A stretch of DNA of 64,000 bases from Bixzunavirus cane17 (lineage: Duplodnaviria > Heunggongvirae > Uroviricota > Caudoviricetes): the IMG/VR virus record IMGVR_UViG_2974759174_000001, one strand, 5' to 3'. The translations under genes were made by a program, and so were the position numbers. The notes beneath the pieces were generated by a model. The model had not been told where the DNA came from. It saw only the letters and a list, made by a program, of their open reading frames with translations, and did not search any database. This document shows positions 42,601 through 60,652 of this stretch, in pieces; position 1 is the first letter of the stretch, and the number at the start of each line of letters is the position of its first letter.

Positions 42601-43437
42601 GACGCCTCCACTCCGGGCGGGTTCGACCTGAGCCAGTTCAACGACACCATCAGCGGTGTCGGGGACGCGGTGAACACCGGCGTCGGTATCGCCAGCGACA
42701 TCGCCGGTGGTGTGGGTGACGTGGTCAGCGGCATCGGCTCGATCTTCAGCTCGCGTCAGGACTACGACGACTGGCACCGCTACGCCTACCCCGAGGCGGG
42801 CGACCACAAGCCGTTCGCCGGTTCGGGCCCGCAGGAGCCGCTGAAGTTCACCCCGTCGACCGAGTACGCCGACAAGGCCCGCCGGAAGATGGACGACGTC
42901 ACCGACCTGGACTACGACCACAGCAAGCCGGTCAATCCCCGACAGTCGTCGGCGGGCGGCGGCATCCAGCGCGCCGGACGTGGCGCGCGCCGGACGGTCG
43001 AGCCGGTGGTGGTCCGCGAGCAGCGTCCGGGTGGGCGTGTAGCCGCGCAGCAGCCCCACGTGCCGGACGACTTCGACCCACTGGCCCCGCGCACGGCGGC
43101 GAGCTTCGACGACCCGTACGACGCTCCTGATGTCGATCAGGCCGCAATGCGCATCGCGGCCAACACCGAGGGCGACATCGTCGCGGCCTTCCAGCGCAGC
43201 GCCGGAGCCGAAGCCATCATGTCCAGCTCGGGTGGCGGCGCAGCGAGCCAGTACGACGACTTCTCCTCGTCGCCTGCGGTGATCGCGGCCATGCAGCGCA
43301 CCGCCGGACGGCACTACTCGCCATCGGAGCAGGCCGAGCTGATCCGCGAGGGCGACCGTGGCGGGGCCGGAAACCTCGACGCGCTGGACCTGCGCGGAAC
43401 TCACTACGAGGCAGAGCACAGCGTCGGCCTGTGGTGA
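39634..43437 (+). CDS. giant virion-associated-like protein (1267 aa) with Gly/Ala-rich hydrophobic segment, SWIM zinc finger and LysM peptidoglycan-binding domain; candidate internal/ejection protein
   Basis: SWIM CACEWGKW ... RLCSHGYAA; LysM YQIQSGDTLSDIAQRAGYGGDYNSLAQQNNIADPDKIFAGDTINIG; GAGAGAAAGGAGAGLGGAVAGG. Confidence 0.8.
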   Translation: MATVYTDYGPGEIIASETVRGRTQYQVRVAGYGEFWLDATKVGSVHEAWAPLDTDNSVNLPYDPSPQYPALPGDTESTIQPIHEIDADERLSPADSITFEDRSDDESIIDGHSDNFAKSAAYGDPTTSEPGYSHGLEWDAPERSEYAHPDFKHFHDDQYEEEDPLQQAMAEEDGAPDWHPSDQYGDLNKPYPADTWRGSHPDLPGHMASSHEAAAFLIPLMGAGAGAAAGGAGAGLGGAVAGGVARGVGMGVAQDMLGGGGDGQQEPGMVDQAIDTIQPGPGWGELQKGAALDRWLSGQDQGTGTAAGLGDRYIDVTAAVDPSDPISMFRHDPVAYISRTGHVHDEPVSEEMQHYGQLVEANPQIREAAWKDVRAKAMRLRREGRVHVKDVAPDRIYASVDGDHGTYEVMIAKGGAFGGLGGGHAISNWRCACEWGKWAFQRRMTYVGRLCSHGYAAYLTMQSEHMKGKPSQRRRSPYRKRADALQNGPQRLVPELAVNDLDDAHTFLDVTEDERKETGPDDIVSEKDIVHFSRLMAKCDAERLPYPRTLVAFLERYADDQSKEDWKIEDTGKAGPALEELRDWADTSQEDYLGNMEERVEDIRDAVDTAREHGVDASQLTAGVHFRTAAPKPEVTSDGSGGKIQQTRQFSRDPGTSISDWLGVGGTPGAAGTRSNGAGQSMNQSRDSGGVQDTDSTQAKSSGGGFDPNMNDRSNRPVSEGGGATNGTPAGWSAADAASPGSNNGPHGAAGSATNPTPGQPGNNTPAVPGAAPKNNLAGPAGTNTPSATPPGGGQIGQGEYQIQSGDTLSDIAQRAGYGGDYNSLAQQNNIADPDKIFAGDTINIGTPGGGATTPDVDLSAATPGGGADANNTASDFAGTSTSGATDSMGTNNTPTDNAAAQTTTETNKTGRRRRQAAPSGSSATPAPSTTPDDEGLVDSMDNPAAPTGGTPASNTALSSPNNDLGDPSSAIDTGATTGGTPDATGAGTDASTPGGFDLSQFNDTISGVGDAVNTGVGIASDIAGGVGDVVSGIGSIFSSRQDYDDWHRYAYPEAGDHKPFAGSGPQEPLKFTPSTEYADKARRKMDDVTDLDYDHSKPVNPRQSSAGGGIQRAGRGARRTVEPVVVREQRPGGRVAAQQPHVPDDFDPLAPRTAASFDDPYDAPDVDQAAMRIAANTEGDIVAAFQRSAGAEAIMSSSGGGAASQYDDFSSSPAVIAAMQRTAGRHYSPSEQAELIREGDRGGAGNLDALDLRGTHYEAEHSVGLW

Positions 43438-43472: not shown

Positions 43473-46400
43473 GTGGCTACCAAGCACGTACTGCACGCCG
43501 AACGCCGGGATGTGACGACCCGGCCTACGGACAAGGCGATCCGGCGCAAGCTGAAGCACGCCGAGACTCTCGGCGACTTCAAGATGCGCCCGGGTTACCT
43601 CTACACCGTGGTCAGGGCCATCTCGGCGCGAGTTAACCAGAACTACGATGGTTGGCCATCAGACGAGCTAAAGAAGGCCGCGCACACCTTCATCGGAAAG
43701 CCGGTCTTCGTCAACCACGAGAACTACGACCCCAAGAAGGCCCGGGGAGTTGTTGTCGCGGCTCGTTACGTCGAGAACGGCAATGACAAGTTCATCGAGG
43801 TCATTCAGGAAATCGATGCCAAGCGTTTCCCAAAGCTGGCCCACGAGATCCGCACCGGCGGACTTGACTCTGTGTCGATGGGCGCCGAGGCCGGATTCAC
43901 GATCTGCTCGTACTGCGGCAACAAGGCGACCGATGTCCCCGAGATGTGCGACCACGTCCTGTACCACAAGGGCGAGCGTTTGCCACGGCACAACCGCAAG
44001 ACGGGCAAGGTCGAGGACGTTCTCGTCTACGAGTCCTGCCACAAGATCAGCTTCTTCGAGTTGAGCTACGTCTTCGACCCCGCCGACGAGACCGCTGTGG
44101 CTTCGCGCGTGCTGGTGGCCAACAACAAGACCGCCGGTGACTGCCCGCCCGGCCAGGACTGCACGGTCGGCGGCAATCCCGAGGACCAGATCACTCCGGA
44201 CTCGGCCAACAATCCGGTCAACGGCGGCAGCAACGACAGCAGCAGCACCGGCGGCGGTGCTGGAGCGAGCGCGGCCACCACGGTTTCTGGCGGCGAATTG
44301 GGCGAGCCTGGCGAGTCGGTGTCCGCCGGAGGAGGAGCCGGGGCCGACGGCATCATGGACGCCTCGCGCCCGCTCTATGACCAGCTCAAGACGATCGACC
44401 CGAACGCCGATATCGGCGGCTACCGCCCTGGCGGCGACGGCTACGACGAGCACAACAACGGCGCGCTCGACTACATGACCACCGATCCGGCAGTGGCCGA
44501 GCAGGTCAAGCAGAAGGCGTTCGAGAACGGCGCTCCGTACGTCATCTGGCAGCAGCAGCTGCACTACCCCGACGGCTCCACCAAAGCGATGGAGGACCGA
44601 GGTAGTCCGACGCAGAACCACATGGACCACGTGCACACGGGCCCGCTGACCGGACCGAAGGCTGCCCGGATCGAGCACACGGTTCTGGTTACCGCCGGGT
44701 TCGTCGATCCGGCTGTCGACTGCACCGTGTGCCGTCAGGCCCGGGTGGCCACCAAGTGCCACTACTGCGCCGGAGACGCCGAGGAGGGCTTCTCCTCGTG
44801 TGCCGCGCATCGGCCCATGGAAGAGAAGAAGTTCAGGGCCGCACAGCGAGAGGAGGCCGCGATGACATTCGAGGCTAGCGTGATTCGTGAGTTCCTCGGT
44901 GGCCCGCCACCCCCGGCCCGTCCGATGACCGGCATCGAGCACCAGCCTGGTCTCAATCCCGAGGACTATGTCGTGCCGTACAAGGGGCGCGGCTACCAGC
45001 CCGGCATGCCGGTAGACGTCTACCGCAACTTGCACTCGGAGAAGACCGGCACCGGTCTGTGGTCAGTCCGGCACAAGGGTCAGGTGGTCGGTCACGCCGA
45101 CTTCATCCACATGCCGCAGGGCAAGTTCTTCGTGGGCGAGGGCGGCAACGCCAAGGTTCAGGAGACCGGCCAGAAGAACGTGCACGCCGGTGCGCGTGGC
45201 GTGCTGGGCCCGGTCCCGCACGACCACGACCCGTCGCAGTACGTCGGCATCACCTACAACCCCAAGGCCGGAGACACCAGCTTCTACCAGCGCGAGACCA
45301 AGGAGCCGGTCTGGGAGGCCGATCATGTGCACCTGGGTCCCGACGGCAAGGCCTACACCCTCGGTCCGCGCAGCGGCATGGCCAGCGCCGACCAGAAGGT
45401 GTTCGAGGCCATGGTCCTGCAGGCCTACGGCGAGACCGAGGCGCCCACCCGTGTGGACACCCTGCGTGAAGAGGGCTCGGCGCCCGAGGACGACAACAAC
45501 GACTTCTACCACTACGTCGAGCCGCCCAAGGAGCTGCAGACCCCGGATCTGTCCGAGGCCGCACAGATCGACCGTCAGCAGGCCGAGAACCAGGGCGACA
45601 CGATGGACGTCGACGGCGACCCCGGACCGCACAGCGTGATGAACCAGGAGCCCGTCCCGGGCGCCGGTGGGGCCCCGCAGCAGCAGTTCATGACGCTGCA
45701 GATCCCGATCCCGCCACAGGGCCAGGCGCCCGGCGTGCCGATGCAGTCGTTCGCGCCGCCCGCGCCCGCCCCGGCGCCACCCATGCCTCCCCAGCAGATC
45801 GCCGCGTCGACGCTGGACTTCTTCGACCGGTACTACGGGCGCCGCGTGGCCAACTGGCTCGACGCCATTGAGGCCGGACGCGAGTTCACCGCCGAGGAGG
45901 CCTCGGACTACAGGCGGGAAGCAATGAAGCTGTCGACCCTGCAAAAAGCACCCTCAGCTTCAACAACAAGTAGGAACCCCATGAAAGGAACCGCCAACAT
46001 GGCACGCAGCAATCTCGCCTCGCGCGGCAAGGTGGTGACGGCTGGTCGTCGGCAGCACTTCGCCGAGGGTCCGTTGGTGGACTCGGGCGACCAGAGCCGT
46101 AACGACCAGGGCGAGCAGGAAGAGGCCTTCATCTCGACCACGCCGCCCGAGGAGTCCGTGGTGGCTCCCACCGACGACACCCCCAACATCTCGAACACCG
46201 AGCAGAACCTCGTCGCCCGCGTGAAGCGAGGCCGTGCCCAGCTCATGGCCGACGCGCAGAAGCTGGCTCAGCTCCAGGCTCAGCGCCAGCGCCGCATGGC
46301 CAACGAGGCCGGTGGCCCGGTGGCTACCGAGGTCAACCCGACGGTGAACTCGGGCCCCGGCGCCGAGGAGCTCACCGGCGATGACTTCGAGTCGGCCAAC

Positions 46401-47195
46401 CCCAACGACGGTGTCGTCGAGACTCAGCCCAAGGATGCGAGCCTGCATGCGTTCCGCACCTTCGACTCGTGGCTGAAGCGCAAGACGGGCAAGTCGGCGC
46501 GGTACCACACCAGCGCGACCATTCGCCGTGCGGCGGACGACTTCAGCCGTCAGTCGAACGTCTCGGTCCAGGCCCTGTTCCCGGCCCTGGGAATCGTGCT
46601 GCGAGAAGCACGAAAGAACGAAAAGGCAGCAGCCAACACCAAGGGAGCCAACATGCGCAAGCGTGCCGACGAGAAGCTGGAAGTCGCAGCTCCGGATGGA
46701 CGTGTTGACGTCGAGGCTCCGACCCGAGGAACGACTGACGCCGAGGCGCAGGCCTCGCAGTTCGACCTCAACGACTTCGGCAACAACGCCGGAGACGACA
46801 TCGCCGATCCGGATCTGAGCACCGATCAGAACTGGGCCCCCGGTGAGGCCAAGAAGTCCAGCAAGGTCAAGACGGCAGGTGGCGTTCTCGCCTTCCGTCT
46901 GGCGGAAGCCATGATCGCTGCTGGCATCGAGCCGAACACCGTCGAGCGGAAGTATGCGCTGGCGGCAGAGTTCGAAAACATGAATCGCGGTGCGGTCCAG
47001 GACCGTATCGCACTGTGCGAGCGCTTCGTGCCGGTTCTGGCCGCAGCTCGCCGACAGGTCGCCAGCGGTAGTACTCGCGGGGCCGCACTGAAGTCCCCCA
47101 TCCCTTCGGGCCTGGTGCAGGGCGCACAGCGCACCGCCGGACGCGCAGTGGTGGCGGCAAACGACCCCCGTAACGACGCTTCGCTCTTCATCTAA
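43473..47195 (+). CDS. giant fusion protein (1240 aa): N-terminal prohead-protease-like domain (S78/U35-like), M15-family zinc peptidase domain, zinc ribbons, Pro-rich and coiled-coil C-terminus
   Basis: VNHENYDPKKARGVVV ... GGLDSVSMGAEAGF (His/Ser protease-like); GGYRPGGDGYDEHNNGALDYMTTD ... DHVHTG (M15 SxHxxGxAxD ... DHxH); GTG with GAGGAGG RBS. Confidence 0.8.
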   Translation: MATKHVLHAERRDVTTRPTDKAIRRKLKHAETLGDFKMRPGYLYTVVRAISARVNQNYDGWPSDELKKAAHTFIGKPVFVNHENYDPKKARGVVVAARYVENGNDKFIEVIQEIDAKRFPKLAHEIRTGGLDSVSMGAEAGFTICSYCGNKATDVPEMCDHVLYHKGERLPRHNRKTGKVEDVLVYESCHKISFFELSYVFDPADETAVASRVLVANNKTAGDCPPGQDCTVGGNPEDQITPDSANNPVNGGSNDSSSTGGGAGASAATTVSGGELGEPGESVSAGGGAGADGIMDASRPLYDQLKTIDPNADIGGYRPGGDGYDEHNNGALDYMTTDPAVAEQVKQKAFENGAPYVIWQQQLHYPDGSTKAMEDRGSPTQNHMDHVHTGPLTGPKAARIEHTVLVTAGFVDPAVDCTVCRQARVATKCHYCAGDAEEGFSSCAAHRPMEEKKFRAAQREEAAMTFEASVIREFLGGPPPPARPMTGIEHQPGLNPEDYVVPYKGRGYQPGMPVDVYRNLHSEKTGTGLWSVRHKGQVVGHADFIHMPQGKFFVGEGGNAKVQETGQKNVHAGARGVLGPVPHDHDPSQYVGITYNPKAGDTSFYQRETKEPVWEADHVHLGPDGKAYTLGPRSGMASADQKVFEAMVLQAYGETEAPTRVDTLREEGSAPEDDNNDFYHYVEPPKELQTPDLSEAAQIDRQQAENQGDTMDVDGDPGPHSVMNQEPVPGAGGAPQQQFMTLQIPIPPQGQAPGVPMQSFAPPAPAPAPPMPPQQIAASTLDFFDRYYGRRVANWLDAIEAGREFTAEEASDYRREAMKLSTLQKAPSASTTSRNPMKGTANMARSNLASRGKVVTAGRRQHFAEGPLVDSGDQSRNDQGEQEEAFISTTPPEESVVAPTDDTPNISNTEQNLVARVKRGRAQLMADAQKLAQLQAQRQRRMANEAGGPVATEVNPTVNSGPGAEELTGDDFESANPNDGVVETQPKDASLHAFRTFDSWLKRKTGKSARYHTSATIRRAADDFSRQSNVSVQALFPALGIVLREARKNEKAAANTKGANMRKRADEKLEVAAPDGRVDVEAPTRGTTDAEAQASQFDLNDFGNNAGDDIADPDLSTDQNWAPGEAKKSSKVKTAGGVLAFRLAEAMIAAGIEPNTVERKYALAAEFENMNRGAVQDRIALCERFVPVLAAARRQVASGSTRGAALKSPIPSGLVQGAQRTAGRAVVAANDPRNDASLFI

Positions 47196-48820: not shown

Positions 48821-48850
48821 AGACCCCCTCCTTCGGGAGGGGGTCTTTTC
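48821..48850 (+). terminator. rho-independent terminator AGACCCCCTCC-ttcg-GGAGGGGGTCT plus TTTTC
   Basis: perfect 11-bp stem with U-tract. Confidence 0.8.
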
Positions 48851-48993: not shown

Positions 48994-49932
48994 GTGAGTG
49001 TATGCGCCAACCCCGAGTGCGGCAAAGAGTTCGAGCAGCCCAACAAGTACCGCACCACCAAGACATGCTCCAAGGAGTGCCGATACGCGGTCTCGGCCAG
49101 CACCACCAAGGCCTCCAGTGGCCGGTGGGAGACCAAGGTCTGCCCATGTGGAGTCGAGTTCCAGAGCGCCGTCAATAAGCCCAAGACGTATCACGACTGG
49201 GACTGCATGATGAAGCATCGGCAGGAAGACGCTCGGGCGTCTCGGACGTGCGAGAATCCTGAATGCGGCAAGGAGTTCACTTACTTCAAGCGCCAGAATC
49301 AGCGGACCTGCTCGCCGGAGTGCCGCAACAAAGTCACCGCCATGAAGCGTGAGAACAACTATCCCGAGTGCCAGACGTGCGGTGTCTCCACCGGCTCCTA
49401 CAACCGGATCTACTGCGACGAGCACCGCCCTAATCGTCCGGGCCGCAAGCCCGCACCTCGGATCACTGCGACCTGCCTGTGCTGTGGTGAGGAGTTCACT
49501 CGCCCGGAGAACTACCCCGGCAAGATGAAGTACTGCTCGAACGCCTGCAGTCATCGTCAGGTGAAGAAAGTCCGGGACAAGTTCATCGCCGACCTCCCCG
49601 AGGGTGCGATCGTCTTCCACAGCATGTGGGAGGTGCGCTTCGTCGCTGCCTGTGAGCGGTTCGACATCCCCTGGCGCTCCTACGACGGTCCCGACATCGA
49701 GACCTCTCAAGGCGTCTACCGTCCTGACTTCATCATCGGCAAGCCGGGCGAGGAGCGCGTGGTCGACGTCAAGGGATGGCTGCGGCCTGAGTCCGAGGTC
49801 AAGTGCCGCGAGGCCGGGGTGCATCTGGTGACCAAGCAGGAGCTGCTGCGGCTGGAGTCCGGTGACAGCTTGGACGCGCATCGCGCATTGCTATGGAACT
49901 CGGGAATGAATGCCCATACCGGTCTGTTATGA
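48994..49932 (+). CDS. zinc-ribbon-repeat protein with C-terminal PD-(D/E)XK nuclease-like domain (313 aa)
   Basis: four repeats of C.NPECGKEF ... RTCS.ECR; C-terminal PDFIIGKPGEERVVDVKGW (D ... E.K); GTG 48994 with AGGGAG RBS. Confidence 0.7.
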   Translation: MSVCANPECGKEFEQPNKYRTTKTCSKECRYAVSASTTKASSGRWETKVCPCGVEFQSAVNKPKTYHDWDCMMKHRQEDARASRTCENPECGKEFTYFKRQNQRTCSPECRNKVTAMKRENNYPECQTCGVSTGSYNRIYCDEHRPNRPGRKPAPRITATCLCCGEEFTRPENYPGKMKYCSNACSHRQVKKVRDKFIADLPEGAIVFHSMWEVRFVAACERFDIPWRSYDGPDIETSQGVYRPDFIIGKPGEERVVDVKGWLRPESEVKCREAGVHLVTKQELLRLESGDSLDAHRALLWNSGMNAHTGLL

Positions 49933-49971: not shown

Positions 49972-50604
49972 ATGAACACCTACCCCGCCTCCGACGCCCA
50001 GATCCGCTTCATCAACACCCTGCTCGCCGAGCGCGACGTCCCGCAGGCCTCCCGCGACTACGTCGCTCACCTGCTGGACACCGGCATCAGCAGTAAGCGT
50101 GCCAGCGACGCCATCGCCCACCTGAAGGGCTTCGTCAAGATCCAGGCCCAGCAGGAGCTGGCCGTCGCGGCCATCGCTCGTCCCCGTCCCACCGAGCCCG
50201 GCTTCTACCTGGTCGACGGCGAGGTCTTCAAGGTCGTCGAGACCCGTGACGGCGAGCGGCTCTACGCCAAAAAGACCACCGCCCACGGCCTGGAGTACGT
50301 CCCCGGCGCCATGGCCCGGATCTTCGCCGACCAGAAGCTCTCGCCCGAGCAGATCGCCGAGCAGGGTCTGACCCAGGGCTTCTGCATCGTGTGCTCCTCG
50401 GAGTTCGAGGACCCGACCTCCAAGCACATCGGCATCGGCCCGGTCTGCGGCAAGAAGATCCTGGGCGCCGAGGCCTACAAGGACCTGCGCCTGAGCGTGG
50501 CCGATCGTCCCGACGTCATCGCCTTCGAGGCGGCGAAGAAGGCAGCGGCCAAGGCCCGCCGCGAGGCCAAGAAGGCCGAGAGCGAGCAGCTCTCCCTGGT
50601 GTGA
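49972..50604 (+). CDS. hypothetical protein (210 aa), possible tail component
   Basis: ORF after element; followed by terminator. Confidence 0.75.
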   Translation: MNTYPASDAQIRFINTLLAERDVPQASRDYVAHLLDTGISSKRASDAIAHLKGFVKIQAQQELAVAAIARPRPTEPGFYLVDGEVFKVVETRDGERLYAKKTTAHGLEYVPGAMARIFADQKLSPEQIAEQGLTQGFCIVCSSEFEDPTSKHIGIGPVCGKKILGAEAYKDLRLSVADRPDVIAFEAAKKAAAKARREAKKAESEQLSLV

Positions 50605-50615
50605 CCCACCAGCCC

Positions 50616-50645
50616 AGAGGCCCCTTCTCCGGAGGGGGTCTCTTC
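50616..50645 (+). terminator. hairpin AGAGGCCCC-ttctccgga-GGGGGTCTCT then TTCG
   Basis: 9-bp stem. Confidence 0.55.
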
Positions 50646-50686
50646 GCATGTCCGAGGTCCATGAATAGGTGAGGAGGACTTTCCCC

Positions 50687-52300
50687 ATGACTTTGCCTGG
50701 ACCGCCGCTGACCCCGCCGGGCGCGGACTCCCCCGCATGGCCTCCGGTCATTCGCGGCAACCCGGACCACGTCCCGCCGGAGAGCATCCCCACCCACAAG
50801 GAGATTCCGATCTCGGCTGTCGACGGCCTCCAGGAGGCCCTGGAGAGCCTGCAGGGCGGCACGGACAGCGGCGTGCAGCCGCGAGTTCTGTACGGACCGC
50901 GCGTTGTTCTCGATGGCGATTCGATTACTCTTGGCTCGACTACTACAGGAACCTGGAATCAAGGTCGCGGCGGCTGGGGGATGGAGCTGGCCCGACTGTC
51001 CGGCGGACGCATCGACATCGTCTACAACGCAGCCATCGGCGGCACGGGCATCGACACGCGGCTGGAGAACTTCGACAGCAAAGTCGCACCACATAACCCG
51101 CAGACGGTCATCTTGTCCAACGGGACAAACGATGTGGCCAGCATGCCTCTGACCGAATATCTGACCAAGCTGACGACCTACTATCAGAAGGCGCGGGCCA
51201 TCGGTGCCCACCTGGTGTTAGGCGGCATCTATCCGAAGAACACGAATGCCTCGACCATCGCTCGGTGGAATGTCGCCCTGCAGGAGTGGGCTGCATCGCG
51301 GGGCGTGGTCGTGATTCCGTTCTGGAGTCTGGCAGACCCGGCCACCGGAGCCTGGCCATCCGGATGGAGTTCGGACGGCACGCACCCTCTGCGAGAGACG
51401 CCCGCGTACGCCGCTCTCGGGCGGCTGGCCTGGGACACTCTGGCCTCCTCGTTCACCGAGCCGGTGGCGCCGACGGCCTTCTATGCGGGCGAGGGCCTCT
51501 ACACGAACTTCTTCACCGACCTCGCGGCGACGATCACCGGCACGGCCACGATCTCGGTGATCGCGACGACGACAGGGTCCCTGGCGCCCGGAGAGTATTC
51601 GTACCGGGTGGTTCCGAGGAACTACTGGGGCAAGAACAACAACTTCGACGACGACACCATCACGCTTTCAGAAACAGGCGGGGTGTCGCTCACGGTGACC
51701 GGATCGGGCACGTACACACGCCGCGCGGTGTACCGCAAGGGGCCTGGCGACACGACGTTCCGATACATCGGTCAGATCACCGCCACTGGCACGCAGACGT
51801 TCACCGACGGCGGTCTGACGGCAGGGTACGACTGGGAGGACGGAGACAGCTCCCGCATTCCCAACGGACTGGCCAACGGCGCCACTCAGGACCTCCGCAC
51901 CCTGGCGTACGGTCCGCCGGTCCGACCCGGCAACGGCGAGGTCCGGGGAAACATTCTGCGACTCACACGGCACGAGGGATCAGGCGTCTCGCACATCGAC
52001 CGATTCACCGTCACCGGCCTGACGGCAGGGCAGAAGATCACTGTCTCCTGCAAGTGTCGAGGAGCGAACACCACAAACGCGACAGAGCGCATTCAGGTGT
52101 ACTTCCGCGACCCCGCCGATGCCACCAACGTCGAACTGGTCCCCCTGATCTTTCATCGACTCTCGGCGGACTGGGGCCTGGTGTTCAAGACCATGGTCGT
52201 TCCCGCCGGATCGGACCGTCTTCGAGTTTCGTTCGAGGGGGACGCGACGTCGCCGTACATCGACGTCGCCGAGCTGTATGTAGCCCAGACCGCTGTCTAA
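50687..52300 (+). CDS. tail-fibre-like protein with SGNH/GDSL hydrolase (esterase) domain (537 aa)
   Basis: GDSL blocks VVLDGDSITLG, ILSNGTNDVAS, DGTHP; N-terminal MTLPGPPLTPPGADSPAWPPV module shared with the next gene; RBS GAGGAGGA. Confidence 0.8.
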   Translation: MTLPGPPLTPPGADSPAWPPVIRGNPDHVPPESIPTHKEIPISAVDGLQEALESLQGGTDSGVQPRVLYGPRVVLDGDSITLGSTTTGTWNQGRGGWGMELARLSGGRIDIVYNAAIGGTGIDTRLENFDSKVAPHNPQTVILSNGTNDVASMPLTEYLTKLTTYYQKARAIGAHLVLGGIYPKNTNASTIARWNVALQEWAASRGVVVIPFWSLADPATGAWPSGWSSDGTHPLRETPAYAALGRLAWDTLASSFTEPVAPTAFYAGEGLYTNFFTDLAATITGTATISVIATTTGSLAPGEYSYRVVPRNYWGKNNNFDDDTITLSETGGVSLTVTGSGTYTRRAVYRKGPGDTTFRYIGQITATGTQTFTDGGLTAGYDWEDGDSSRIPNGLANGATQDLRTLAYGPPVRPGNGEVRGNILRLTRHEGSGVSHIDRFTVTGLTAGQKITVSCKCRGANTTNATERIQVYFRDPADATNVELVPLIFHRLSADWGLVFKTMVVPAGSDRLRVSFEGDATSPYIDVAELYVAQTAV

Positions 52301-52317
52301 GCGAAGGAAACGTCTCC

Positions 52318-52857
52318 ATGACCATGCCTGGACCCCCGCACACCCCGCCCGGCGCCGATTCTCCGGCCTGGCCTCCGGTCGTCTCTGCCAACGGTTACGT
52401 GCCGCCCGAGAGCATTCCGACCCGCACCACGGTGACCTCGGTCGAGGGTCGGTCCGGTGATGTCGACGTCACCATGGACGACATCGAGGGTCTGCAGGAA
52501 GCGCTGGACGAAGCGAGCGCCCCGGCGACGTGGGACACCCTGTCCGGCAAGCCTGCCGTGATCGCTGCTGGGGCCACCCAGGCCGCTGCTCGGTCGGCCA
52601 TCGGCGCGGGTACTTCCAGCCTGGCCCTGGGCACCACGGCCTCCACCGCACTGGCGGGCAACACCGCGCTGGTGCCGCCCACGCGCACCGTCAACGGCAA
52701 GGCCCTCAGTGCCAACGTGACGCTCGGTGGTGGTGATGTGGCACTGACTGGCTACGCCGCCGGGACCGCCGAACCGGTGTCCGCCACCGACACGGTCAAC
52801 GCGGCCATCGCCAAGCTGGAGGCGAGGATCGCCGCCCTGGAGGCCGGACAGCCGTAA
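52318..52857 (+). CDS. tail-fibre-like protein (179 aa) sharing the N-terminal anchor module, Ala/Gly-rich with C-terminal coiled coil
   Basis: MTMPGPPHTPPGADSPAWPPV ... VPPESIPT paralogous to the 50687 gene N-terminus. Confidence 0.7.
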   Translation: MTMPGPPHTPPGADSPAWPPVVSANGYVPPESIPTRTTVTSVEGRSGDVDVTMDDIEGLQEALDEASAPATWDTLSGKPAVIAAGATQAAARSAIGAGTSSLALGTTASTALAGNTALVPPTRTVNGKALSANVTLGGGDVALTGYAAGTAEPVSATDTVNAAIAKLEARIAALEAGQP

Positions 52858-53368: not shown

Positions 53369-55252
53369 ATGCGAATCACCACTGCTCGCGAGCAGTTCGA
53401 AATGCTCTTGCCCTGGCGAGAGGCCGACGTCGCTATTCGCCCAGACGCCGTTCCGCCAGGAGTTCCTGGTGCTGGCAATCAGCCTCAGATCCCGGCCCGA
53501 GGGAAGAACATCGGCGAAAACACGCCATGGTCGCAGGTCGACTGGCGTACCGCCGACGATTACGGGGCGCATCGGTCCACCAGTCGACCACCGATGTCTT
53601 CCGACATCCCGCACCCGACCGAGCTGCTCGATCCCCGCAAGGCCGGTCATCGTGCACGCTTGGAGCGTGCGACGGCCAGCGAAGACCCGGTGAACGATCC
53701 ATGGAACGTCCTCGGCGGCACACCCTGGACATTCGAAGACCTGGTCCAGAACCACATGAGCCACCACCAGAACATGAATCCCGAGCAGGAGTTTCAGGGG
53801 CGTGTCTGGTACCCAGCGGCCCATGACTCCACCAAGGACGTGGCCCAGCGGACCATCGGTGACCACGAGCGCACGGTGGCCGTCGATTCGGCGCTGTCGC
53901 CGGTCAAGGACTGGGACCTCAACAACGAGCAGATGATCCACTACCTGACCAACTACGAGGGCCAGGAGGGATACAAGTCTCCGACGAAGAACTGGAAGGG
54001 ATTCAGCCGCGACGCGCCCGAGCGCGACCCTGAGAACCGGTTCCGGATCAAGGCGCCCGACGATCAGAACGAGAAGGCTCATCGGCTGATGGACGCCCCG
54101 GCAGGATCGCTGGGGCGAGAGGACTACCTCAACATCCTGTCCGGCCCCAAGACCAGCTCCTTCTTCAACAACATCCTCGACGAGACCCCGCTGCGCGAAC
54201 CGCGCTCAGGCGTGCCGGACGACGAGGGGTTCTACGAGCACCAGATCAATCCGAACACCGGCAAGCCGGACTGGCGCTACGGCGATCAGGACGTCACCGT
54301 GGACACCCATCACGCCCGGGTTCAGACGATCCCGCACGGCGCCGATCTCAGCCAGGTGGGGTACGTGGTGCCCGACCACTTCGGCGAGAAGCTCACGGTC
54401 AACAAGAAGGCCTACCACCCCGGTTACGACCTGCACGCTCGTGCGTCGGCGGAAGCAACCCGTCGGCTCAACGCCATGCAGGAGGACGACCTGCGGACTT
54501 TGAAGCCCAAGCAGGCTCAGGCCGGTCCGTGGGTCAAGTTCAAGAAGGACGTCGTCGACGCCGGTGTGTCGCCGAACATGCCCGAGCCCGGCCAGATGCC
54601 CAAGTCTTTCAATCCCGACAAGCCGACCCAGCTGAGGGGCCCGTATCCGAACACTCCGGACCAGCCTCGTTATCAGCGTGACGTTGGCGACTTCTGGGTA
54701 CATCCAGACCGTCCGGACCCGGACCTGCGCCGGGCTCCGAACTGGAACAACCGCACGCCCAGCTGGCGTAGTGAGAAGAATCGTCGACAATCGTCGGTGC
54801 GAGTGGGCTTCGTCGAGGAATGGATCGCTCAGCACTTCCCGCATCGGGCTCATAGTCCCGAAGACGGCAGCGTCCAGCAGGTGGTTCAGGCCAGCTTCAG
54901 CGACGACTTCGAACCGATCGCGATTCATCCCGAGCCGCACAAGATCCACCCGGACTGGGGCGGCGGAGAGCCAGACATCGAACATCGTGGCTACTGGCAG
55001 CACGGCCCGTCCGAGATGTCGGTGATGAGCGACTGGGGTGACGAGAACGGGAACATCAACTACTCGCTCATCCACCAGGGCGACACGATCGACGTCGCGC
55101 AGGACCCGCACGAGTTCCTCTCGCGGTCTCCGCAGGAGCTGGCTGACATGTTCGGCCTGAATCCGGAGACGCACGACGATCGCGGTCACTACGGGTCTCG
55201 GCTGACTGCTGAGACTCTCTCCTTCGCCGATGAGGTGCTCAAGAATGTGTAA
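53369..55252 (+). CDS. hypothetical large protein (627 aa) with conserved N-terminal RITTAREQFEMLLPW module
   Basis: long ORF; N-terminus paralogous to the next gene. Confidence 0.8.
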   Translation: MRITTAREQFEMLLPWREADVAIRPDAVPPGVPGAGNQPQIPARGKNIGENTPWSQVDWRTADDYGAHRSTSRPPMSSDIPHPTELLDPRKAGHRARLERATASEDPVNDPWNVLGGTPWTFEDLVQNHMSHHQNMNPEQEFQGRVWYPAAHDSTKDVAQRTIGDHERTVAVDSALSPVKDWDLNNEQMIHYLTNYEGQEGYKSPTKNWKGFSRDAPERDPENRFRIKAPDDQNEKAHRLMDAPAGSLGREDYLNILSGPKTSSFFNNILDETPLREPRSGVPDDEGFYEHQINPNTGKPDWRYGDQDVTVDTHHARVQTIPHGADLSQVGYVVPDHFGEKLTVNKKAYHPGYDLHARASAEATRRLNAMQEDDLRTLKPKQAQAGPWVKFKKDVVDAGVSPNMPEPGQMPKSFNPDKPTQLRGPYPNTPDQPRYQRDVGDFWVHPDRPDPDLRRAPNWNNRTPSWRSEKNRRQSSVRVGFVEEWIAQHFPHRAHSPEDGSVQQVVQASFSDDFEPIAIHPEPHKIHPDWGGGEPDIEHRGYWQHGPSEMSVMSDWGDENGNINYSLIHQGDTIDVAQDPHEFLSRSPQELADMFGLNPETHDDRGHYGSRLTAETLSFADEVLKNV

Positions 55253-56546
55253 CCGCCGTCGCATCATCACCGCCCGCGAGCAGTTCGAGATGCTGCAACC
55301 CTGGCACCGCGAAGCTGCTGCGCACCCGGAGGCTCACCCGGATCTGCACCACAGCTTCGCCACGCACGGCTCGGTGCACACCACCGGTGGCCGCGTGCTG
55401 CCGCAGCGCACCGCCAACTCGCCGACCTTCCAGGATCCGGCGGGATGGACCTTCCATAAGTCCTTCGAGCCCAGCCAGCACGCATTGCAGGGCGCACGGG
55501 CCTACGCCTCGCTGGTCGGCCTGCCGGACCCGCACTCCGGTCATGTGGACTACCTCAACGCCCGCCGGACGCCCGACAGCGTGGCCAAAGTGGCCAAGGC
55601 CTACGACAGCCTGCCGGACATGGACCGCAGTGCCGTCCCGCACTTCCAGGCGATGGCCGACGAGGTGGCCAAGCAGCACGACTTCATGACCAATCGTCTG
55701 GGCATCAAGACCCAGTCGGTGGACTACGACCCGTACACCGACGTGCACGAGATGCTGCACGACATCAACCACAACAAGACCCTCAAGGTGATGGGCACCC
55801 ATGTCACCGGCGGGCATCCCTTGTTCAGCAACAAGCAGAACGACATGTTCCGCGCTGTGCACGACTTCTTCGGTCATGCCGCGACCGGGCGCAGCTTTGA
55901 CCGACATGGCGAGCAGGCTGCATACCTGGCGCACGCGCAGATGTTCTCTCCGCACGCGCTGCCCGCGCTGGCCAGCGAGACCAAGGGTCAGAACAGCTCG
56001 CTGATCTACAACGGCCAGTTCGGTCCGCAGAAGGTCGGCATCATGTCGCCGGAGCACTACACCGACGGCCTGGCGCTGCATCGACCGCGTGTGTCATCCT
56101 ATAGAACAGCTGTAGGAGATCCACAGTGGCAGAACGAGGTAGAGAAGGCCGTGCGCGAGACGGGCGGGTACACCTTCCGCGATCGTCCTGGTGACGGCCC
56201 GCAGAGCGGATTCATGGTGGCCCTGCCGGGCGCCGAGAAGATCGTTCCGCGTGACGAGTTCTCCGGGGAGGATGCCGCCCGCTACCGCCAGGAGTGGGAC
56301 GACAGGATCCGGGAGGATCCCGATCGCTATCAGGGTGGCTGGGACGACGTCGAGTCGGGCAACTTCTACCACGACGTGGCCAAGCACTACGACGACCTCT
56401 GGGAGTCGGGTGTGGCCGGACGCGCCGAGAACGACGAAGATGCCCAGCACGGTATCTACCATCTCGACTCCGACACCACGTTCAGCCCTCTGGAGGTCAA
56501 CTACGGCGGCACGCCGGGATACATGATGGCCAGGAGGGAAGACTGA
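55245..56546 (+). CDS. hypothetical protein (433 aa) with paralogous N-terminal RIITAREQFEMLQPW module, His-rich
   Basis: 8-nt overlap with the upstream gene. Confidence 0.75.
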   Translation: MCNRRRIITAREQFEMLQPWHREAAAHPEAHPDLHHSFATHGSVHTTGGRVLPQRTANSPTFQDPAGWTFHKSFEPSQHALQGARAYASLVGLPDPHSGHVDYLNARRTPDSVAKVAKAYDSLPDMDRSAVPHFQAMADEVAKQHDFMTNRLGIKTQSVDYDPYTDVHEMLHDINHNKTLKVMGTHVTGGHPLFSNKQNDMFRAVHDFFGHAATGRSFDRHGEQAAYLAHAQMFSPHALPALASETKGQNSSLIYNGQFGPQKVGIMSPEHYTDGLALHRPRVSSYRTAVGDPQWQNEVEKAVRETGGYTFRDRPGDGPQSGFMVALPGAEKIVPRDEFSGEDAARYRQEWDDRIREDPDRYQGGWDDVESGNFYHDVAKHYDDLWESGVAGRAENDEDAQHGIYHLDSDTTFSPLEVNYGGTPGYMMARRED

Positions 56547-58896: not shown

Positions 58897-59802
58897 ATGA
58901 CTGCACGCAGGTCCGCTTCGCAGCTGGACATGAACAGCAAGAAGATCATCGAAGTCGGTGCTCCTTCGAACCCCAACGACGCAGCCCGCAAGGCCGACGT
59001 CGACACCTCCTACAACAACGCGATCTCGCGTGCCAACCACACCGGCACGCAGACCGCGTCGACCATCAGCAACTTCGACACCCAGGTCCGGGCCAACCGG
59101 CTCGACCAGATGAGCGCGCCGACGGCGCCGGTGTCGATGAACAGTCAGCGGGTGACCTCGGTGGCCGCGCCTACCGTCGACGGCGACGCGGCCAACAAGA
59201 AGTACGTCGACGACGCGCTGGCCGGTCTGGTCTCCGGCATGGAGCGCAAGGGCGGCGTCAAGGTGGCCGTCGGGGAGAACGTCAACATTGCCAACCCGGG
59301 CACCTCGACCCTCGACGGCGTCAGCGTGAGCAGTGGCGACATCGTCCTGCTCTACGGCCAGACCGACGGCACTCAGAACGGCCCGTACGTCTTCAACGGC
59401 TCCGGTGTGGGCATGACCCGCGCGGCCAACTGGGACACCGCCGGTGAGGCCGTCATCGGCTCGTTCTGGATCGTGGCGCAAGGGTCCAAGGCCGACCACT
59501 TCGCCCTGATGACCAATGACAGCTTCGTGCTGGGCAGCGATGAGATGGACGTCCAGTTCGTCGGCGTGGCCCCGACGGCCAGCGCGCCGTTCGAGGCCGA
59601 CCTCGGCGACGGCTCGGCGACGGTCTTCAACTGCGATCACAACTTCAACACCCGCGCGGTGCACGTGACCGTCTACCGCAATGCCAGCCCGTACGACGAG
59701 CCGCTGGTCTACATCGCCCACCCGACAGTCAACCGGGTGACCATCGAGCCTGACGACGTCTGGTCCAGCGGCCAGTATCACGTGGTGATTTCTCGCGCGT
59801 GA
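58897..59802 (+). CDS. tail fibre protein (301 aa)
   Basis: repeated fibre motifs KKIIEVGAPSNPNDAARKADVD and QRVTSVAAPTVDGDAANKKYVDDA. Confidence 0.8.
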   Translation: MTARRSASQLDMNSKKIIEVGAPSNPNDAARKADVDTSYNNAISRANHTGTQTASTISNFDTQVRANRLDQMSAPTAPVSMNSQRVTSVAAPTVDGDAANKKYVDDALAGLVSGMERKGGVKVAVGENVNIANPGTSTLDGVSVSSGDIVLLYGQTDGTQNGPYVFNGSGVGMTRAANWDTAGEAVIGSFWIVAQGSKADHFALMTNDSFVLGSDEMDVQFVGVAPTASAPFEADLGDGSATVFNCDHNFNTRAVHVTVYRNASPYDEPLVYIAHPTVNRVTIEPDDVWSSGQYHVVISRA

Positions 59803-59833: not shown

Positions 59834-60652
59834 ATGACAACTCGCGCCAGTGCGTCGCGGCTCTCGGTCACCCACGCCCCCACCGCCAATGAGCACGTCG
59901 CCAACAAGCAGTACGTCGACCAGGCAATCGCGGCGGTGCTGGCCAACGACGGCATCACCATGGGTGCCATCGACGGCCTCGAGGAGGCCCTCAACACCAA
60001 GATGGACAAGTCGCTGGTCGACGCCAAGGGTGACCTCGTCATCGGCACGGCGAACAACTCCCCGGGCATCTTGTCCGTCGGCGCCGACCGGACGTTCCTG
60101 ACGCCCAAGGCGGCGAATCCGACCGGCCTGGAGTGGACAACCATTCAGGCCTCCGACATCTCCGGCCTGAGCGACCTGTTGGCCCTGCGTGCCCCGATCA
60201 ACAACCCGACGTTCACCGGCACCGTCTCGGGCATCACCAAGGCCATGGTGGGTCTGGGCAACGTCGACAACACCTCCGACGCCACCAAGAACTCCGCCAC
60301 GGCCACCCTGACCAATAAGCGGATCACCAAGCGGGTCCACGATCAGAACGCGCCGGGCGCCACGCCCACGTTGGCCTGGAACTCCTACGACATGATCGTG
60401 CTGCGTGGCATCAACGCGGCCATCACGTCGTTGTCCTCGGGCATCACCGGCACGCCGACCCAGGGCCAGCCCTGGCTGCTGCGGTTCAAGGACGACGGCA
60501 CCGCTCGGGCGCTTACTTGGGGCGCCTCCTATCGGGCGATCGGAGTCGCTCTGCCTACCACAACCACGGTCGGCAAGACGCTCTACGTGGGCGGCTTCTA
60601 CAACGCCACGGACTCGCTTTACGACGTGCTCGCCGTCGGTCAGGAGGCCTGA
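59834..60652 (+). CDS. tail fibre protein (272 aa)
   Basis: ANEHVANKQYVDQA; PTFTGTVSGITKAMVGLGNVDNTSD classic fibre motif. Confidence 0.8.
   Translation: MTTRASASRLSVTHAPTANEHVANKQYVDQAIAAVLANDGITMGAIDGLEEALNTKMDKSLVDAKGDLVIGTANNSPGILSVGADRTFLTPKAANPTGLEWTTIQASDISGLSDLLALRAPINNPTFTGTVSGITKAMVGLGNVDNTSDATKNSATATLTNKRITKRVHDQNAPGATPTLAWNSYDMIVLRGINAAITSLSSGITGTPTQGQPWLLRFKDDGTARALTWGASYRAIGVALPTTTTVGKTLYVGGFYNATDSLYDVLAVGQEA

What the first reader, a model, noticed from the sequence alone, without database searches (positions are those of the whole stretch)
50687..52857. Adjacent tail-fibre genes share a conserved N-terminal anchor module; one carries an SGNH/GDSL esterase
Both proteins begin MT(L/M)PGPP(L/H)TPPGADSPAWPPV ... 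VPPESIPT, then diverge completely. The first continues into a full GDSL hydrolase (GDS, GxND and DxxH blocks) followed by beta-rich repeats. A swappable N-terminal attachment domain on different distal domains is the signature of a modular receptor-binding system. The esterase may deacylate a cell-wall glycan or lipid for adsorption.
Basis: seen in the sequence. Interest (0 to 1): 0.6.

Follow-up and report, generated by a model that had tools for sequence, protein, structure and literature searches.

The report
Shared docking peptide on fibre and esterase
Two neighbouring genes of mycobacteriophage Cane17, a short fibre and a sugar-binding esterase, start with the same 36-residue proline-rich peptide that probably plugs both onto one site of the virus particle; this is an ordinary modular design, unusual only in that the site may be the head, not the tail.

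Summary
The window is Mycobacterium phage Cane17 (cluster C1 myovirus). gp91 (50687-52300) and gp92 (52318-52857) share residues 1-36 plus a GLQEAL helix (BLASTP E=2e-17; z=21 against 5000 shuffles). gp91 then continues as a complete SGNH/GDSL esterase, a beta-sandwich and a carbohydrate-binding-module-like jelly roll.

- **Anchor:** the N-terminus is a swappable module. It occurs only in C-like myophages, always in the gene slot just after the cement and major capsid genes, and is fused to at least five different distal parts.
- **Esterase cassette:** the same cassette sits on unrelated N-termini in a siphovirus (Kersh, 80% identical), a podovirus (Jasmine, N-terminus shared with its tailspike) and Rhodococcus phage Weasels2.
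- **Insertion:** gp91 is a 1.6-kb insertion placed exactly at the start codon of the resident fibre gene. It is present in only 4 of about 200 C1 phages.

"Tail fibre" is not supported. Gene context and public annotation ("head fiber protein") point to the head module, but no experiment or structure locates the docking site.

Both the kind of system (modular receptor-binding proteins, phage SGNH esterases) and the two gene annotations are already known. The possibly new element is an enzyme mounted on a head-fibre anchor.

The parts
50605..50686 (+). Intergenic leader of gene 91. It holds a hairpin at 50621-50638 (7-bp stem, loop TCCG) after gp90 and the ribosome-binding site GAGGAGG at 50671-50677. 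It is the same leader that precedes the fibre gene in phages lacking gene 91.
   Evidence: DNA alignment with StephanieG; BLASTN breakpoints; coordinates. The scan did not call the hairpin a terminator because its T-tract is weak.
50687..52309 (+). Insertion of about 1.62 kb (gene 91 plus most of the 17-nt spacer), relative to about 200 other cluster C1 phages. It is present only in Cane17, Colt, Blubba and Pier.
   Evidence: In the megablast, 5 records (4 phages) cover the region and the others match in two pieces. The left junction is at the ATG of gene 91 and the right junction is 8 nt upstream of the ATG of gene 92.
50687..50794 (+). gp91 residues 1-36: proline-rich docking peptide (anchor), MTLPGPPLTPPGADSPAWPPVIRGNPDHVPPESIPT.
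   Evidence: BLASTP; shuffle test z=21. 12 of 28 conserved residues use different codons in the two genes, so the peptide is kept by selection. The segment is disordered in the AF2 monomer.
50795..50881 (+). gp91 residues 37-65: neck, with a predicted helix at 43-60 containing GLQEAL. This is the ScoobyDoobyDoo-type version, lacking the 12-residue insert of gp92.
   Evidence: AF2 secondary structure; alignment with P0151; tblastn hit to ScoobyDoobyDoo, 60.9% over residues 13-58.
50882..51472 (+). gp91 residues 66-262: SGNH/GDSL esterase domain. Catalytic codons: S79 at 50921-50923, N148 at 51128-51130, D230 at 51374-51376, H233 at 51383-51385.
51524..51820 (+). gp91 residues about 280-378: beta-sandwich (Ig/FN3-like) spacer domain.
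   Evidence: AF2 strands 287-374, pLDDT above 85; PHROG 752 match at residues 281-369.
51854..52297 (+). gp91 residues about 390-537: beta jelly roll resembling carbohydrate-binding modules.
52301..52317 (+). 17-nt spacer carrying a new ribosome-binding site (GAAGGA) for gene 92.
   Evidence: Sequence; homology to phages without the insert resumes at 52310.
52318..52422 (+). gp92 residues 1-35: resident copy of the docking peptide.
   Evidence: It is 90-100% identical across the 203 C1 phage records that have it (183 of them 95-99%, 17 at 99% or more).
52423..52515 (+). gp92 residues 36-66: linker plus GLQEAL helix (predicted helix 53-66).
   Evidence: AF2; alignment.
52516..52857 (+). gp92 residues 67-179: fibre shaft repeat (GKPAVIAAGA..AAARSAIGAGTS, helix-turn-helix type), a TRTVNGKALSANVTL block and a C-terminal coiled coil (helix 160-176).
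   Evidence: PHROG 5711 'head fiber protein', E=3.8e-32; some homologues carry Pfam PF11133; alignment A4; AF2.

Best explanation
gp91 and gp92 are two surface appendages of the Cane17 virion that use the same docking device: a 36-residue proline-rich N-terminal peptide followed by a short GLQEAL helix.

Shown:
- The peptide is the hallmark of the one fibre gene that follows the cement and major capsid genes in C-like mycobacterial myophages. There it is fused to interchangeable distal parts: a short coiled-coil fibre, longer repeat fibres, a PTR-plus-beta domain, a glycine-rich domain, or an esterase.
- In four C1 phages a 1.6-kb cassette (a diverged copy of the anchor, then SGNH esterase, beta-sandwich and CBM-like jelly roll) is inserted exactly at the start codon of the resident fibre gene. 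It takes over that gene's leader and brings a new ribosome-binding site for the fibre gene.
- The enzyme part is 80% identical to a protein encoded beside the minor-tail genes of the siphovirus Kersh, so it moved horizontally between phages of the same host.
- The catalytic Ser-Asp-His triad and the oxyanion Asn are intact.

Inferred:
- Both proteins are built into the particle and occupy the same class of docking sites. These are most likely on the T=16 capsid (head fibres), so the virion would carry a mixture of plain fibres and enzyme-tipped fibres.
- The CBM-like tip binds a Mycobacterium smegmatis surface glycoconjugate and the esterase removes an acyl, probably O-acetyl, group from it. 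This would give reversible, processive surface binding that helps adsorption, as esterase tailspikes do.
- Acetylated glycopeptidolipid is the leading candidate substrate, because the C1 phage I3 needs glycopeptidolipid.
For: - **Anchor similarity:** E=2e-17 and z=21. 43% of the conserved residues use different codons, so both copies are under purifying selection.
- **Anchor distribution:** it is restricted to 203 C1 records, with two copies only in Cane17, Colt, Blubba and Pier. An all-against-library HMMER search finds it on P0143, P0145, P0151 and P0153, which have different distal domains. All of those with genomic context lie just downstream of Phage_cement_3 and the capsid gene. Capsid proteins there are 92-95% identical to Cane17's.
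- **Insertion:** breakpoints are defined.
- **Cassette on other anchors:**
  - Kersh gp27 and metagenomic homologues sit at the end of siphoviral minor-tail blocks.
  - Jasmine gp19 shares 67% of 36 N-terminal residues with the beta-helix tailspike gp18 of this podovirus.
  - Weasels2 gp71 shares its N-terminus with gp69 and the BppL_N-like gp74.
- **Head context:** gp87 matches Pfam Phage_cement_3 at E=4e-99, gp88 is the major capsid protein, and gp92 matches PHROG 'head fiber protein'. The closest non-C homologue of the gp92 tip lies between the capsid gene and the head-tail adaptor of a siphovirus.
- **Substrate lead:** glycopeptidolipid is implicated as the I3 receptor (citing Chen et al. 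2009). I3 carries the anchor gene.
Against: - No proteomics, microscopy or structure places gp91 or gp92 on any part of a cluster C virion. I found none in the literature.
- The only related capsid map (Myrna, 7.7 A) shows no fibres. Myrna also lacks the gene, so the map is uninformative.
- The 'head fiber' label rests on the shaft repeat, which is generic. It also matches an R-pyocin tail fibre (E=0.004). Homologues occur beside a candidate tail-tube gene (a 324-aa ORF, no family match) and the tape-measure gene in Simpliphy, and among tail-fibre genes in Schwartz33.
- Every other known home of the esterase cassette is tail-associated.
- The N-terminus has no resemblance to the phi29 gp8.5 capsid-binding base.
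- Enzyme activity and substrate are untested.
- Only 4 of about 200 C1 phages carry gp91, so it is dispensable.
Confidence: 0.6

Rival explanations
1. This keeps the modular anchor and the esterase function, but puts the docking site on the tail, baseplate or neck. gp91 and gp92 would be accessory tail or whisker fibres.
For: - Homologous esterase cassettes are tail-associated elsewhere: Kersh and metagenomic siphoviruses at the end of the minor-tail block, Jasmine sharing its N-terminus with the tailspike, and Weasels2 with BppL_N-like receptor-binding proteins.
- The shaft repeat matches an R-pyocin tail fibre. Shaft homologues occur in tail contexts.
- The distal domains seen on this anchor (PTR, glycine-rich) are typical of tail fibres.
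- Further fibre-like genes (gp105-107) lie in the same long block that follows the capsid gene.
Against: - The gene keeps its place directly after the cement and capsid genes in all four lineages with context. In the relative Myrna the sheath, tape-measure and baseplate genes lie 17 kb or more after the capsid gene.
- Two tandem genes competing for one anchor site is easier to accommodate on a capsid with hundreds of equivalent sites than on 6-12 tail sites. This is inference.
- The public annotation is head fibre.
Confidence: 0.28
2. gp91 is not a virion component. The anchor would be a by-product of the recombination that inserted the cassette, and the esterase would act as a soluble enzyme, for example helping lysis (like LysB) or remodelling the envelope of the infected cell.
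For: - Only 4 of about 200 C1 phages have it.
- Kersh, P0123 and P0130 encode their homologues next to lysis genes.
- SGNH enzymes include peptidoglycan O-acetylesterases.
Against: - The gp91 anchor is not a copy of its neighbour. It is 77% identical at the DNA level over codons 1-25 (58/75), and 12 of 28 conserved residues have synonymous changes, which indicates long-term selection on the peptide.
- Its neck is of the type found in ScoobyDoobyDoo's fibre.
- There is no signal peptide or membrane segment for export (sequence).
- Homologues in three other phages carry virion-attachment N-termini.
- The CBM-like tip fits binding the cell from outside.
Confidence: 0.07
3. The shared N-terminus is a capsid-targeting sequence, like that of the T4 internal proteins. 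It would direct both proteins into the prohead, possibly be cleaved by the prohead protease, and the proteins would be ejected with the DNA.
For: - The genes lie in the head block after a giant protease-containing protein, gp86.
- A second adjacent pair, gp95 and gp96, also shares an N-terminal motif, so N-terminal address tags may be a habit of this block.
Against: - Coiled-coil fibre shafts, PTR repeats and CBM-like tips are external adhesin architectures.
- Homologous cassettes are on external spikes.
- A 36-residue proline-rich peptide is unlike known short capsid-targeting sequences. This is from my knowledge of T4 and was not tested.
Confidence: 0.05

Closest known systems
Esterase tailspikes and tail fibres of N4-like phages (G7C gp63.1, PDB 4qnl; Moo19 gp82 and B2 gp48/49, PDB 9d81 and 9d84; Possum)
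   Different: Only the SGNH domain is shared (whole-protein TM about 0.2-0.3, 12-19% identity). The host is a mycobacterium with no lipopolysaccharide. The domain order here is anchor, SGNH, beta-sandwich, CBM. The gene lies in the head block of a myovirus rather than among podoviral tail genes. Activity is untested.
Multi-spike phages with a shared N-terminal particle-binding module (established knowledge: P22-family tailspikes, SP6/K1-5, CBA120 TSP1-4, multi-depolymerase Klebsiella phages)
   Same: Several genes carry a conserved short N-terminus and unrelated distal domains, exchanged as cassettes between phages. This is seen here within Cane17, across C-like phages, and independently in Jasmine and Weasels2.
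   Different: The anchor here is a 36-residue proline-rich, apparently unstructured peptide, not a folded head-binding domain. It has no similarity to any solved chain. Its docking partner is unknown and may be the capsid.
phi29 head fibre gp8.5 (Pfam PF11133, PDB 3QC7)
   Same: The gene lies just after the capsid gene. The shaft is predicted to be built of helix-turn-helix-type repeats. The fibre is dispensable, and phi29 fibres are reported to enhance attachment (cited in PMC7150772). gp92 hits PHROG 'head fiber protein', and some shaft homologues carry PF11133.
   Different: gp92 itself does not reach PF11133 in Pfam and does not hit gp8.5 by sequence. The N-terminal base is unrelated. No head fibre carrying an enzyme turned up in my searches.
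Kersh gp27 'esterase/lipase' (cluster F1 siphovirus) and PHROG 19622
   Same: 80% amino-acid and 75% nucleotide identity over residues 68-534, with the same SGNH, sandwich and CBM architecture and the same host species. PHROG 19622 matches at E=4e-255.
   Different: Kersh has a 187-residue unrelated N-terminal region and sits between the minor-tail genes and the lysis cassette.

Membership tests
SGNH/GDSL hydrolase superfamily | Block I GDS(x) with the nucleophile serine | tested here: met
   DGDSIT at 76-81. S79 is invariant in 22-24 homologues.
SGNH/GDSL hydrolase superfamily | Block II glycine (oxyanion hole) | tested here: inconclusive
   NAAIGGTG at 114-121 has glycines at 118, 119 and 121, but the column is G, S or A among homologues. 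I could not assign the exact residue without coordinates.
SGNH/GDSL hydrolase superfamily | Block III GxND and block V DxxH (Asn oxyanion, Asp-His of the triad) | tested here: met
   GTND at 146-149 and DGTH at 230-233. N148, D230 and H233 are invariant.
SGNH/GDSL hydrolase superfamily | Profile score above the curated threshold, and an alpha/beta/alpha flavodoxin-like fold | tested here: met
SGNH/GDSL hydrolase superfamily | Measured esterase or acyl-hydrolase activity | not testable with these tools
   Needs purified protein.
Virion-borne esterase receptor-binding protein (G7C gp63.1 type) | SGNH domain structurally equivalent to that of gp63.1 | tested here: met
Virion-borne esterase receptor-binding protein (G7C gp63.1 type) | Physical presence on the particle through an N-terminal adaptor | not testable with these tools
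   This is inferred from the anchor shared with gp92 and from Jasmine and Weasels2 homologues that share N-termini with spikes or receptor-binding proteins. I found no proteomics.
Virion-borne esterase receptor-binding protein (G7C gp63.1 type) | Deacylation of the host receptor glycan during adsorption | not testable with these tools
   The CBM-like tip and the glycopeptidolipid dependence of phage I3 are leads only.
Modular appendage system with shared N-terminal anchor | Two or more genes in one genome with a homologous N-terminus and unrelated remainder | tested here: met
   gp91 and gp92: E=2e-17, z=21, no other similarity.
Modular appendage system with shared N-terminal anchor | The same anchor on different distal domains in related phages | tested here: met
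   C1 fibres of 179-230 aa, P0151, P0145 and P0143. Invariant anchor residues: G5 P6 P7 P11 G12 D14 P19 P29 P30 E31 S32 P34.
Modular appendage system with shared N-terminal anchor | The same distal cassette on different anchors in unrelated phages | tested here: met
   Kersh, Weasels2, Jasmine, P0123-P0142.
Modular appendage system with shared N-terminal anchor | Both proteins bind the same virion site | not testable with these tools
   Needs cryo-EM, pull-downs or multimer modelling, which were not available here.
phi29-type head fibre (PF11133) | Sequence membership in PF11133 or similarity to gp8.5 | tested here: not met
   There is no PF11133 hit for gp92 at E<=0.1, and no gp8.5 hit by phmmer or profile search. 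Only the PHROG 5711 label and PF11133 on three shaft homologues point this way.
phi29-type head fibre (PF11133) | Gene adjacent to the major capsid gene | tested here: met
   It lies in the cement, MCP, (HNH), (gp90), fibre order in Cane17, StephanieG, ScoobyDoobyDoo, L015 and L017.
phi29-type head fibre (PF11133) | Located on the capsid surface | not testable with these tools
   There is no structure of a C1 capsid. Myrna (C2) lacks the gene.

The most novel reading that the evidence does not exclude
The anchor docks on the T=16 capsid, so Cane17-type phages display many copies of an active, CBM-tipped SGNH esterase on their heads. This would be a capsid-borne enzyme that strips acyl groups (for example the O-acetyls of glycopeptidolipid) from the mycobacterial outer surface while the particle 'grazes' before the tail engages. 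The 36-residue proline-rich peptide would then be a portable capsid-display tag for mycobacteriophages.
Probability: 0.35. Interest if true: 0.65.

Novelty: new member of a known kind. Interest (0 to 1): 0.4.

Why it matters
Receptors and adsorption mechanisms of mycobacteriophages are poorly known (PMC9262239). This locus offers three things.
- **A natural on/off comparison:** four phages with the esterase against about 200 near-identical phages without it. This allows a direct test of whether a virion esterase changes adsorption or host range on mycobacteria.
- **A candidate enzyme for a candidate receptor:** acetylated glycopeptidolipid is the leading substrate guess.
- **A short, well-delimited docking peptide:** it could be used to hang foreign domains on cluster C particles.

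If the docking site is the capsid, this would be an unusual case of an enzyme carried on a head fibre. If it is the tail, it is one more modular receptor-binding system.

Tried and rejected
1. A word-index protein search with the 58-residue anchor alone returned nothing at all, not even gp91 itself. This is a method failure, probably low-complexity masking. The exhaustive HMMER search replaced it.
2. Sequence searches of the PDB found no informative solved relative of the anchor or the fibre. I used gp92, a 31-sequence profile, and the anchor profile. The only hits were a weak R-pyocin tail-fibre match to the shaft (E=0.004) and chance hits.
3. The AlphaFold2 monomer of gp92 was of low confidence (pLDDT 64, pTM 0.28). 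I used it only for secondary structure. Multimer modelling of the anchor with the capsid or cement protein was not possible with the tools.
4. Literature searches for cryo-EM or proteomics of Bxz1, I3 or cluster C virions found only the 7.7 A Myrna capsid. Myrna lacks this gene.
5. I considered a recent tandem duplication of the fibre gene's 5' end. I rejected it because the two copies are only 77% identical at the DNA level over codons 1-25 (58/75), with many synonymous differences, and gp91's neck is of the ScoobyDoobyDoo type.
6. I considered the upstream GTG at 50669 as the start of gene 91. I rejected it because the ribosome-binding site GAGGAGG lies inside that extension and the ATG at 50687 aligns with the fibre start in other phages.
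7. I considered gp90 as a 'capsid decoration protein', as annotated in some phages. Only a weak DUF6011 hit and a PHROG of unknown function support anything, so I left it open.
8. The promoter and terminator scan gave nothing specific for genes 91 and 92.
Full report
**Identity of the window and the two genes.** The region is 100% identical to Mycobacterium phage Cane17 (Bixzunavirus, cluster C1 myovirus, 160 kb), and window coordinates equal genome coordinates. The finding spans exactly two annotated genes. Gene 91 lies at 50687-52300 (537 aa; RefSeq 'esterase/lipase'). Gene 92 lies at 52318-52857 (179 aa; 'head fiber protein'). Upstream are gp87 (Pfam Phage_cement_3, E=4e-99), gp88 (major capsid protein), gp89 (HNH endonuclease) and gp90.

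**Check of the observation.** BLASTP of gp91 against gp92 gives one significant segment: 34/65 identities, E=2e-17, covering gp91 1-53 and gp92 1-64. Because the segment is proline-rich, I shuffled the gp92 N-terminus 5000 times. The real local score is 171, against 33.8 +/- 6.5 (maximum 63, z=21). The shared part has two blocks:
- residues 1-36, MTxPGPPxTPPGADSPAWPPV...VPPESIPT;
- a GLQEAL helix, which follows a 12-residue insert present only in gp92.

Of 28 conserved residues in the ungapped blocks, 12 use different codons, and nucleotide identity is 58/75 over codons 1-25. The peptide is therefore kept by selection in both genes and is not a fresh duplication. The GDSL call is correct:
- Pfam Lipase_GDSL_2 scores 76 bits against a cut-off of 32.9;
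- GDS lies at 77-79, GTND at 146-149 and DGTH at 230-233;
- S79, N148, D230 and H233 are invariant across 22-24 homologues.

**Anatomy of gp91.** An AlphaFold2 model built on 22 homologues has mean pLDDT 84.5 and pTM 0.79. It shows these parts:

| Residues | Feature |
|---|---|
| 1-65 | low confidence, except a helix at 43-60 |
| 70-260 | SGNH domain |
| about 285-375 | beta-sandwich |
| about 395-535 | beta jelly roll |

**Anatomy of gp92.** After the anchor and the GLQEAL helix comes one copy of a widespread fibre repeat (GKPAVIAAGA..AAARSAIGAGTS). It is followed by a TRTVNGKALSANVTL block and a C-terminal coiled coil. Other C1 phages carry one extra repeat (227-230 aa) or a small insertion (184 aa). 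This shaft-and-tip part is found with many unrelated N-termini in other phages and prophages.

**Gene 91 is an insertion.**
- Of 206 matching phage records, only Cane17 (two records), Colt, Blubba and Pier cover the whole region. The others match in two pieces.
- In StephanieG the fibre gene directly follows the same 81-82-nt leader that precedes gene 91 in Cane17.
- BLASTN puts the left junction at the ATG of gene 91. Homology resumes at 98% identity 8 nt before the ATG of gene 92.
- Gene 91 has therefore taken over the resident leader and ribosome-binding site. The insert's 3' end supplies a new ribosome-binding site for gene 92.
- gp91 is 100% identical in the four phages.

**Origin of the two halves of gp91.** Residues 68-534 are 80% identical (75% at the nucleotide level) to gp27 of the cluster F1 siphovirus Kersh. 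Kersh infects the same host but has an unrelated 187-residue N-terminal region. The anchor and neck of gp91 (residues 22-57) align without gaps to the fibre of the divergent C-like phage ScoobyDoobyDoo, P0151. About 68% of residues are identical by my count. Both lack the 12-residue insert of gp92. The cassette therefore looks assembled in another C-like lineage and then recombined in through the conserved anchor or leader.

**The anchor is a family-level module.** tblastn with the anchor finds it only in 203 C1 records, once per genome except in the four gp91 phages. An exhaustive HMMER search of 1.84 billion representatives finds four further N-terminal matches:
- P0143, 543 aa, with a glycine-rich C-terminus;
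- P0145, 322 aa, with PTR repeats and a beta domain;
- P0151, 279 aa, from ScoobyDoobyDoo;
- P0153, a fragment.

Twelve anchor positions are invariant across the six aligned anchor proteins (gp91, gp92 and these four). In every case with context, the gene lies just after Phage_cement_3 and the capsid gene, with or without an HNH-like gene between. Capsid proteins there are 92-95% identical to Cane17's, cement proteins 77-82%, and anchors 47-75%. Myrna (C2) has a 92.5%-identical capsid protein and a 70.7%-identical cement protein but lacks the whole gp90-92 segment.

**The esterase cassette is itself portable, and the shared-N-terminus pattern recurs.** Twenty-two homologues have the conserved SGNH, sandwich and CBM core but highly diverse N-terminal regions of 45-190 residues. 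Several contain the same fibre repeat as gp92.
- In siphoviral contigs and Kersh the gene closes the minor-tail block before the lysis genes.
- In the podovirus Jasmine, esterase gp19 shares 24 of 36 N-terminal residues with the adjacent beta-helix tailspike gp18. The morphology and the HK620-like spike are reported in PMC5513430.
- In Rhodococcus phage Weasels2, gp71 shares its first 34-39 residues with gp69 and with gp74, which has a BppL_N-like motif.

So three unrelated phages mount this enzyme on whatever anchor their own spikes use. This is the strongest argument that gp91's N-terminus is a working attachment device.

**Head or tail?** This remains unresolved.

For the head:
- conserved position right after the cement and capsid genes;
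- the PHROG and GenBank 'head fiber' labels;
- a closely related tip domain encoded between the capsid gene and the head-tail adaptor of a siphovirus;
- the ease of sharing abundant capsid sites between two proteins, which is inference.

Against the head:
- the 'head fiber' label derives from the shaft, which is generic. It gives a weak R-pyocin tail-fibre match and occurs in tail contexts in Simpliphy and Schwartz33;
- gp92 does not reach PF11133 or phi29 gp8.5;
- all other homes of the esterase are tail-side;
- no structure or proteomics exists for C1 virions. The Myrna map shows only the minor capsid protein, and Myrna lacks the gene.

I put the capsid at roughly 60-65% and the tail or neck at about 30%.

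**Likely mechanism.**
- *Shown:* a complete catalytic apparatus, a CBM-like tip, a selected anchor shared with a fibre, and horizontal transfer between phages of M. smegmatis.
- *Inferred:* both proteins are incorporated through the anchor. The CBM-like tip binds a surface glycoconjugate. The esterase removes an acyl, probably acetyl, group, giving reversible binding and local remodelling that speeds adsorption, as shown for the G7C, Moo19 and B2 esterase spikes (PMC11654681).
- *Candidate substrate:* glycopeptidolipid is implicated in infection by the C1 phage I3 (Chen et al. 2009, cited in PMC9262239 and PMC8818766). From my own knowledge, M. smegmatis glycopeptidolipids are O-acetylated on 6-deoxytalose. 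This is a lead, not a result.

**Comparison and novelty.** The parts are known kinds: SGNH esterase receptor-binding proteins, shared N-terminal anchors on multiple spikes, and head fibres. Both genes already carry sensible public annotations. What I did not find described is:
- the 36-residue proline-rich anchor as a defined module of C-like myophages;
- the cassette nature and breakpoints of gene 91;
- the possibility that an enzyme rides on a head-fibre anchor.

I rate it a new member of a known kind, of moderate interest. It would be of higher interest if the capsid location is confirmed.

Noticed in passing
window 53369-55252 (gp95) and 55245-56546 (gp96); also L014:9482-9880: A second adjacent gene pair shares an N-terminal motif, RI(T/I)TAREQFEML(L/Q)PW-REA (20/29 identical, E=6e-6), and then diverges. 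A 132-aa ScoobyDoobyDoo protein begins the same way. The function is unknown; it could be another address or docking tag in the head-proximal block.
   Followed up: partly
L015:19574-20887 (metagenomic C-like contig), compared with window 59834-60652 (gp106): A different 437-aa GDSL protein occupies the slot of Cane17 gp106 and shares its first 32 residues with gp106 (56% identical, E=3e-5). Its SGNH domain is only 28% identical to that of gp91. This appears to be an independent second recruitment of an esterase onto another fibre anchor in the same phage group.
   Followed up: partly
window 48994-49932 (gp89), with the terminator-like hairpin at 48821-48846: An HNH endonuclease-like gene with repeated CxxC motifs sits between the capsid gene and gp90. 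It is annotated 'holliday junction resolvase' in StephanieG and is present in ScoobyDoobyDoo and L017 but absent in L015. A strong intrinsic-terminator-like hairpin directly follows the capsid gene.
   Followed up: no
window 49972-50604 (gp90): gp90 is annotated 'capsid decoration protein' in some C1 phages. It matches only a PHROG of unknown function and weakly matches DUF6011 (a CxxC...C segment), and it ends in a Lys/Ala/Glu-rich tail. The decoration label looks unsupported. The gene is missing in Myrna and L015.
   Followed up: partly
window 43473-47195 (gp86) and 39634-43437 (gp85): gp86 (1240 aa) has a prohead-protease-like N-terminus (residues 61-211) fused to a very long extension with tape-measure-like and endolysin-like segments. 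gp85 (1267 aa) contains a transglycosylase-like segment (residues 798-909), and its L015 counterpart has LysM. They may be capsid-internal or ejected proteins.
   Followed up: no
window 58897-59802 (gp105), 59834-60652 (gp106), 60652-61260 (gp107): This is a run of fibre-like genes well downstream of the capsid gene. gp105 is called 'head decoration' in RefSeq but 'putative tail fiber' in Myrna, and it hits both head and tail-fibre PHROGs. gp107 hits a minor-tail PHROG. The annotations are inconsistent across records.
   Followed up: no
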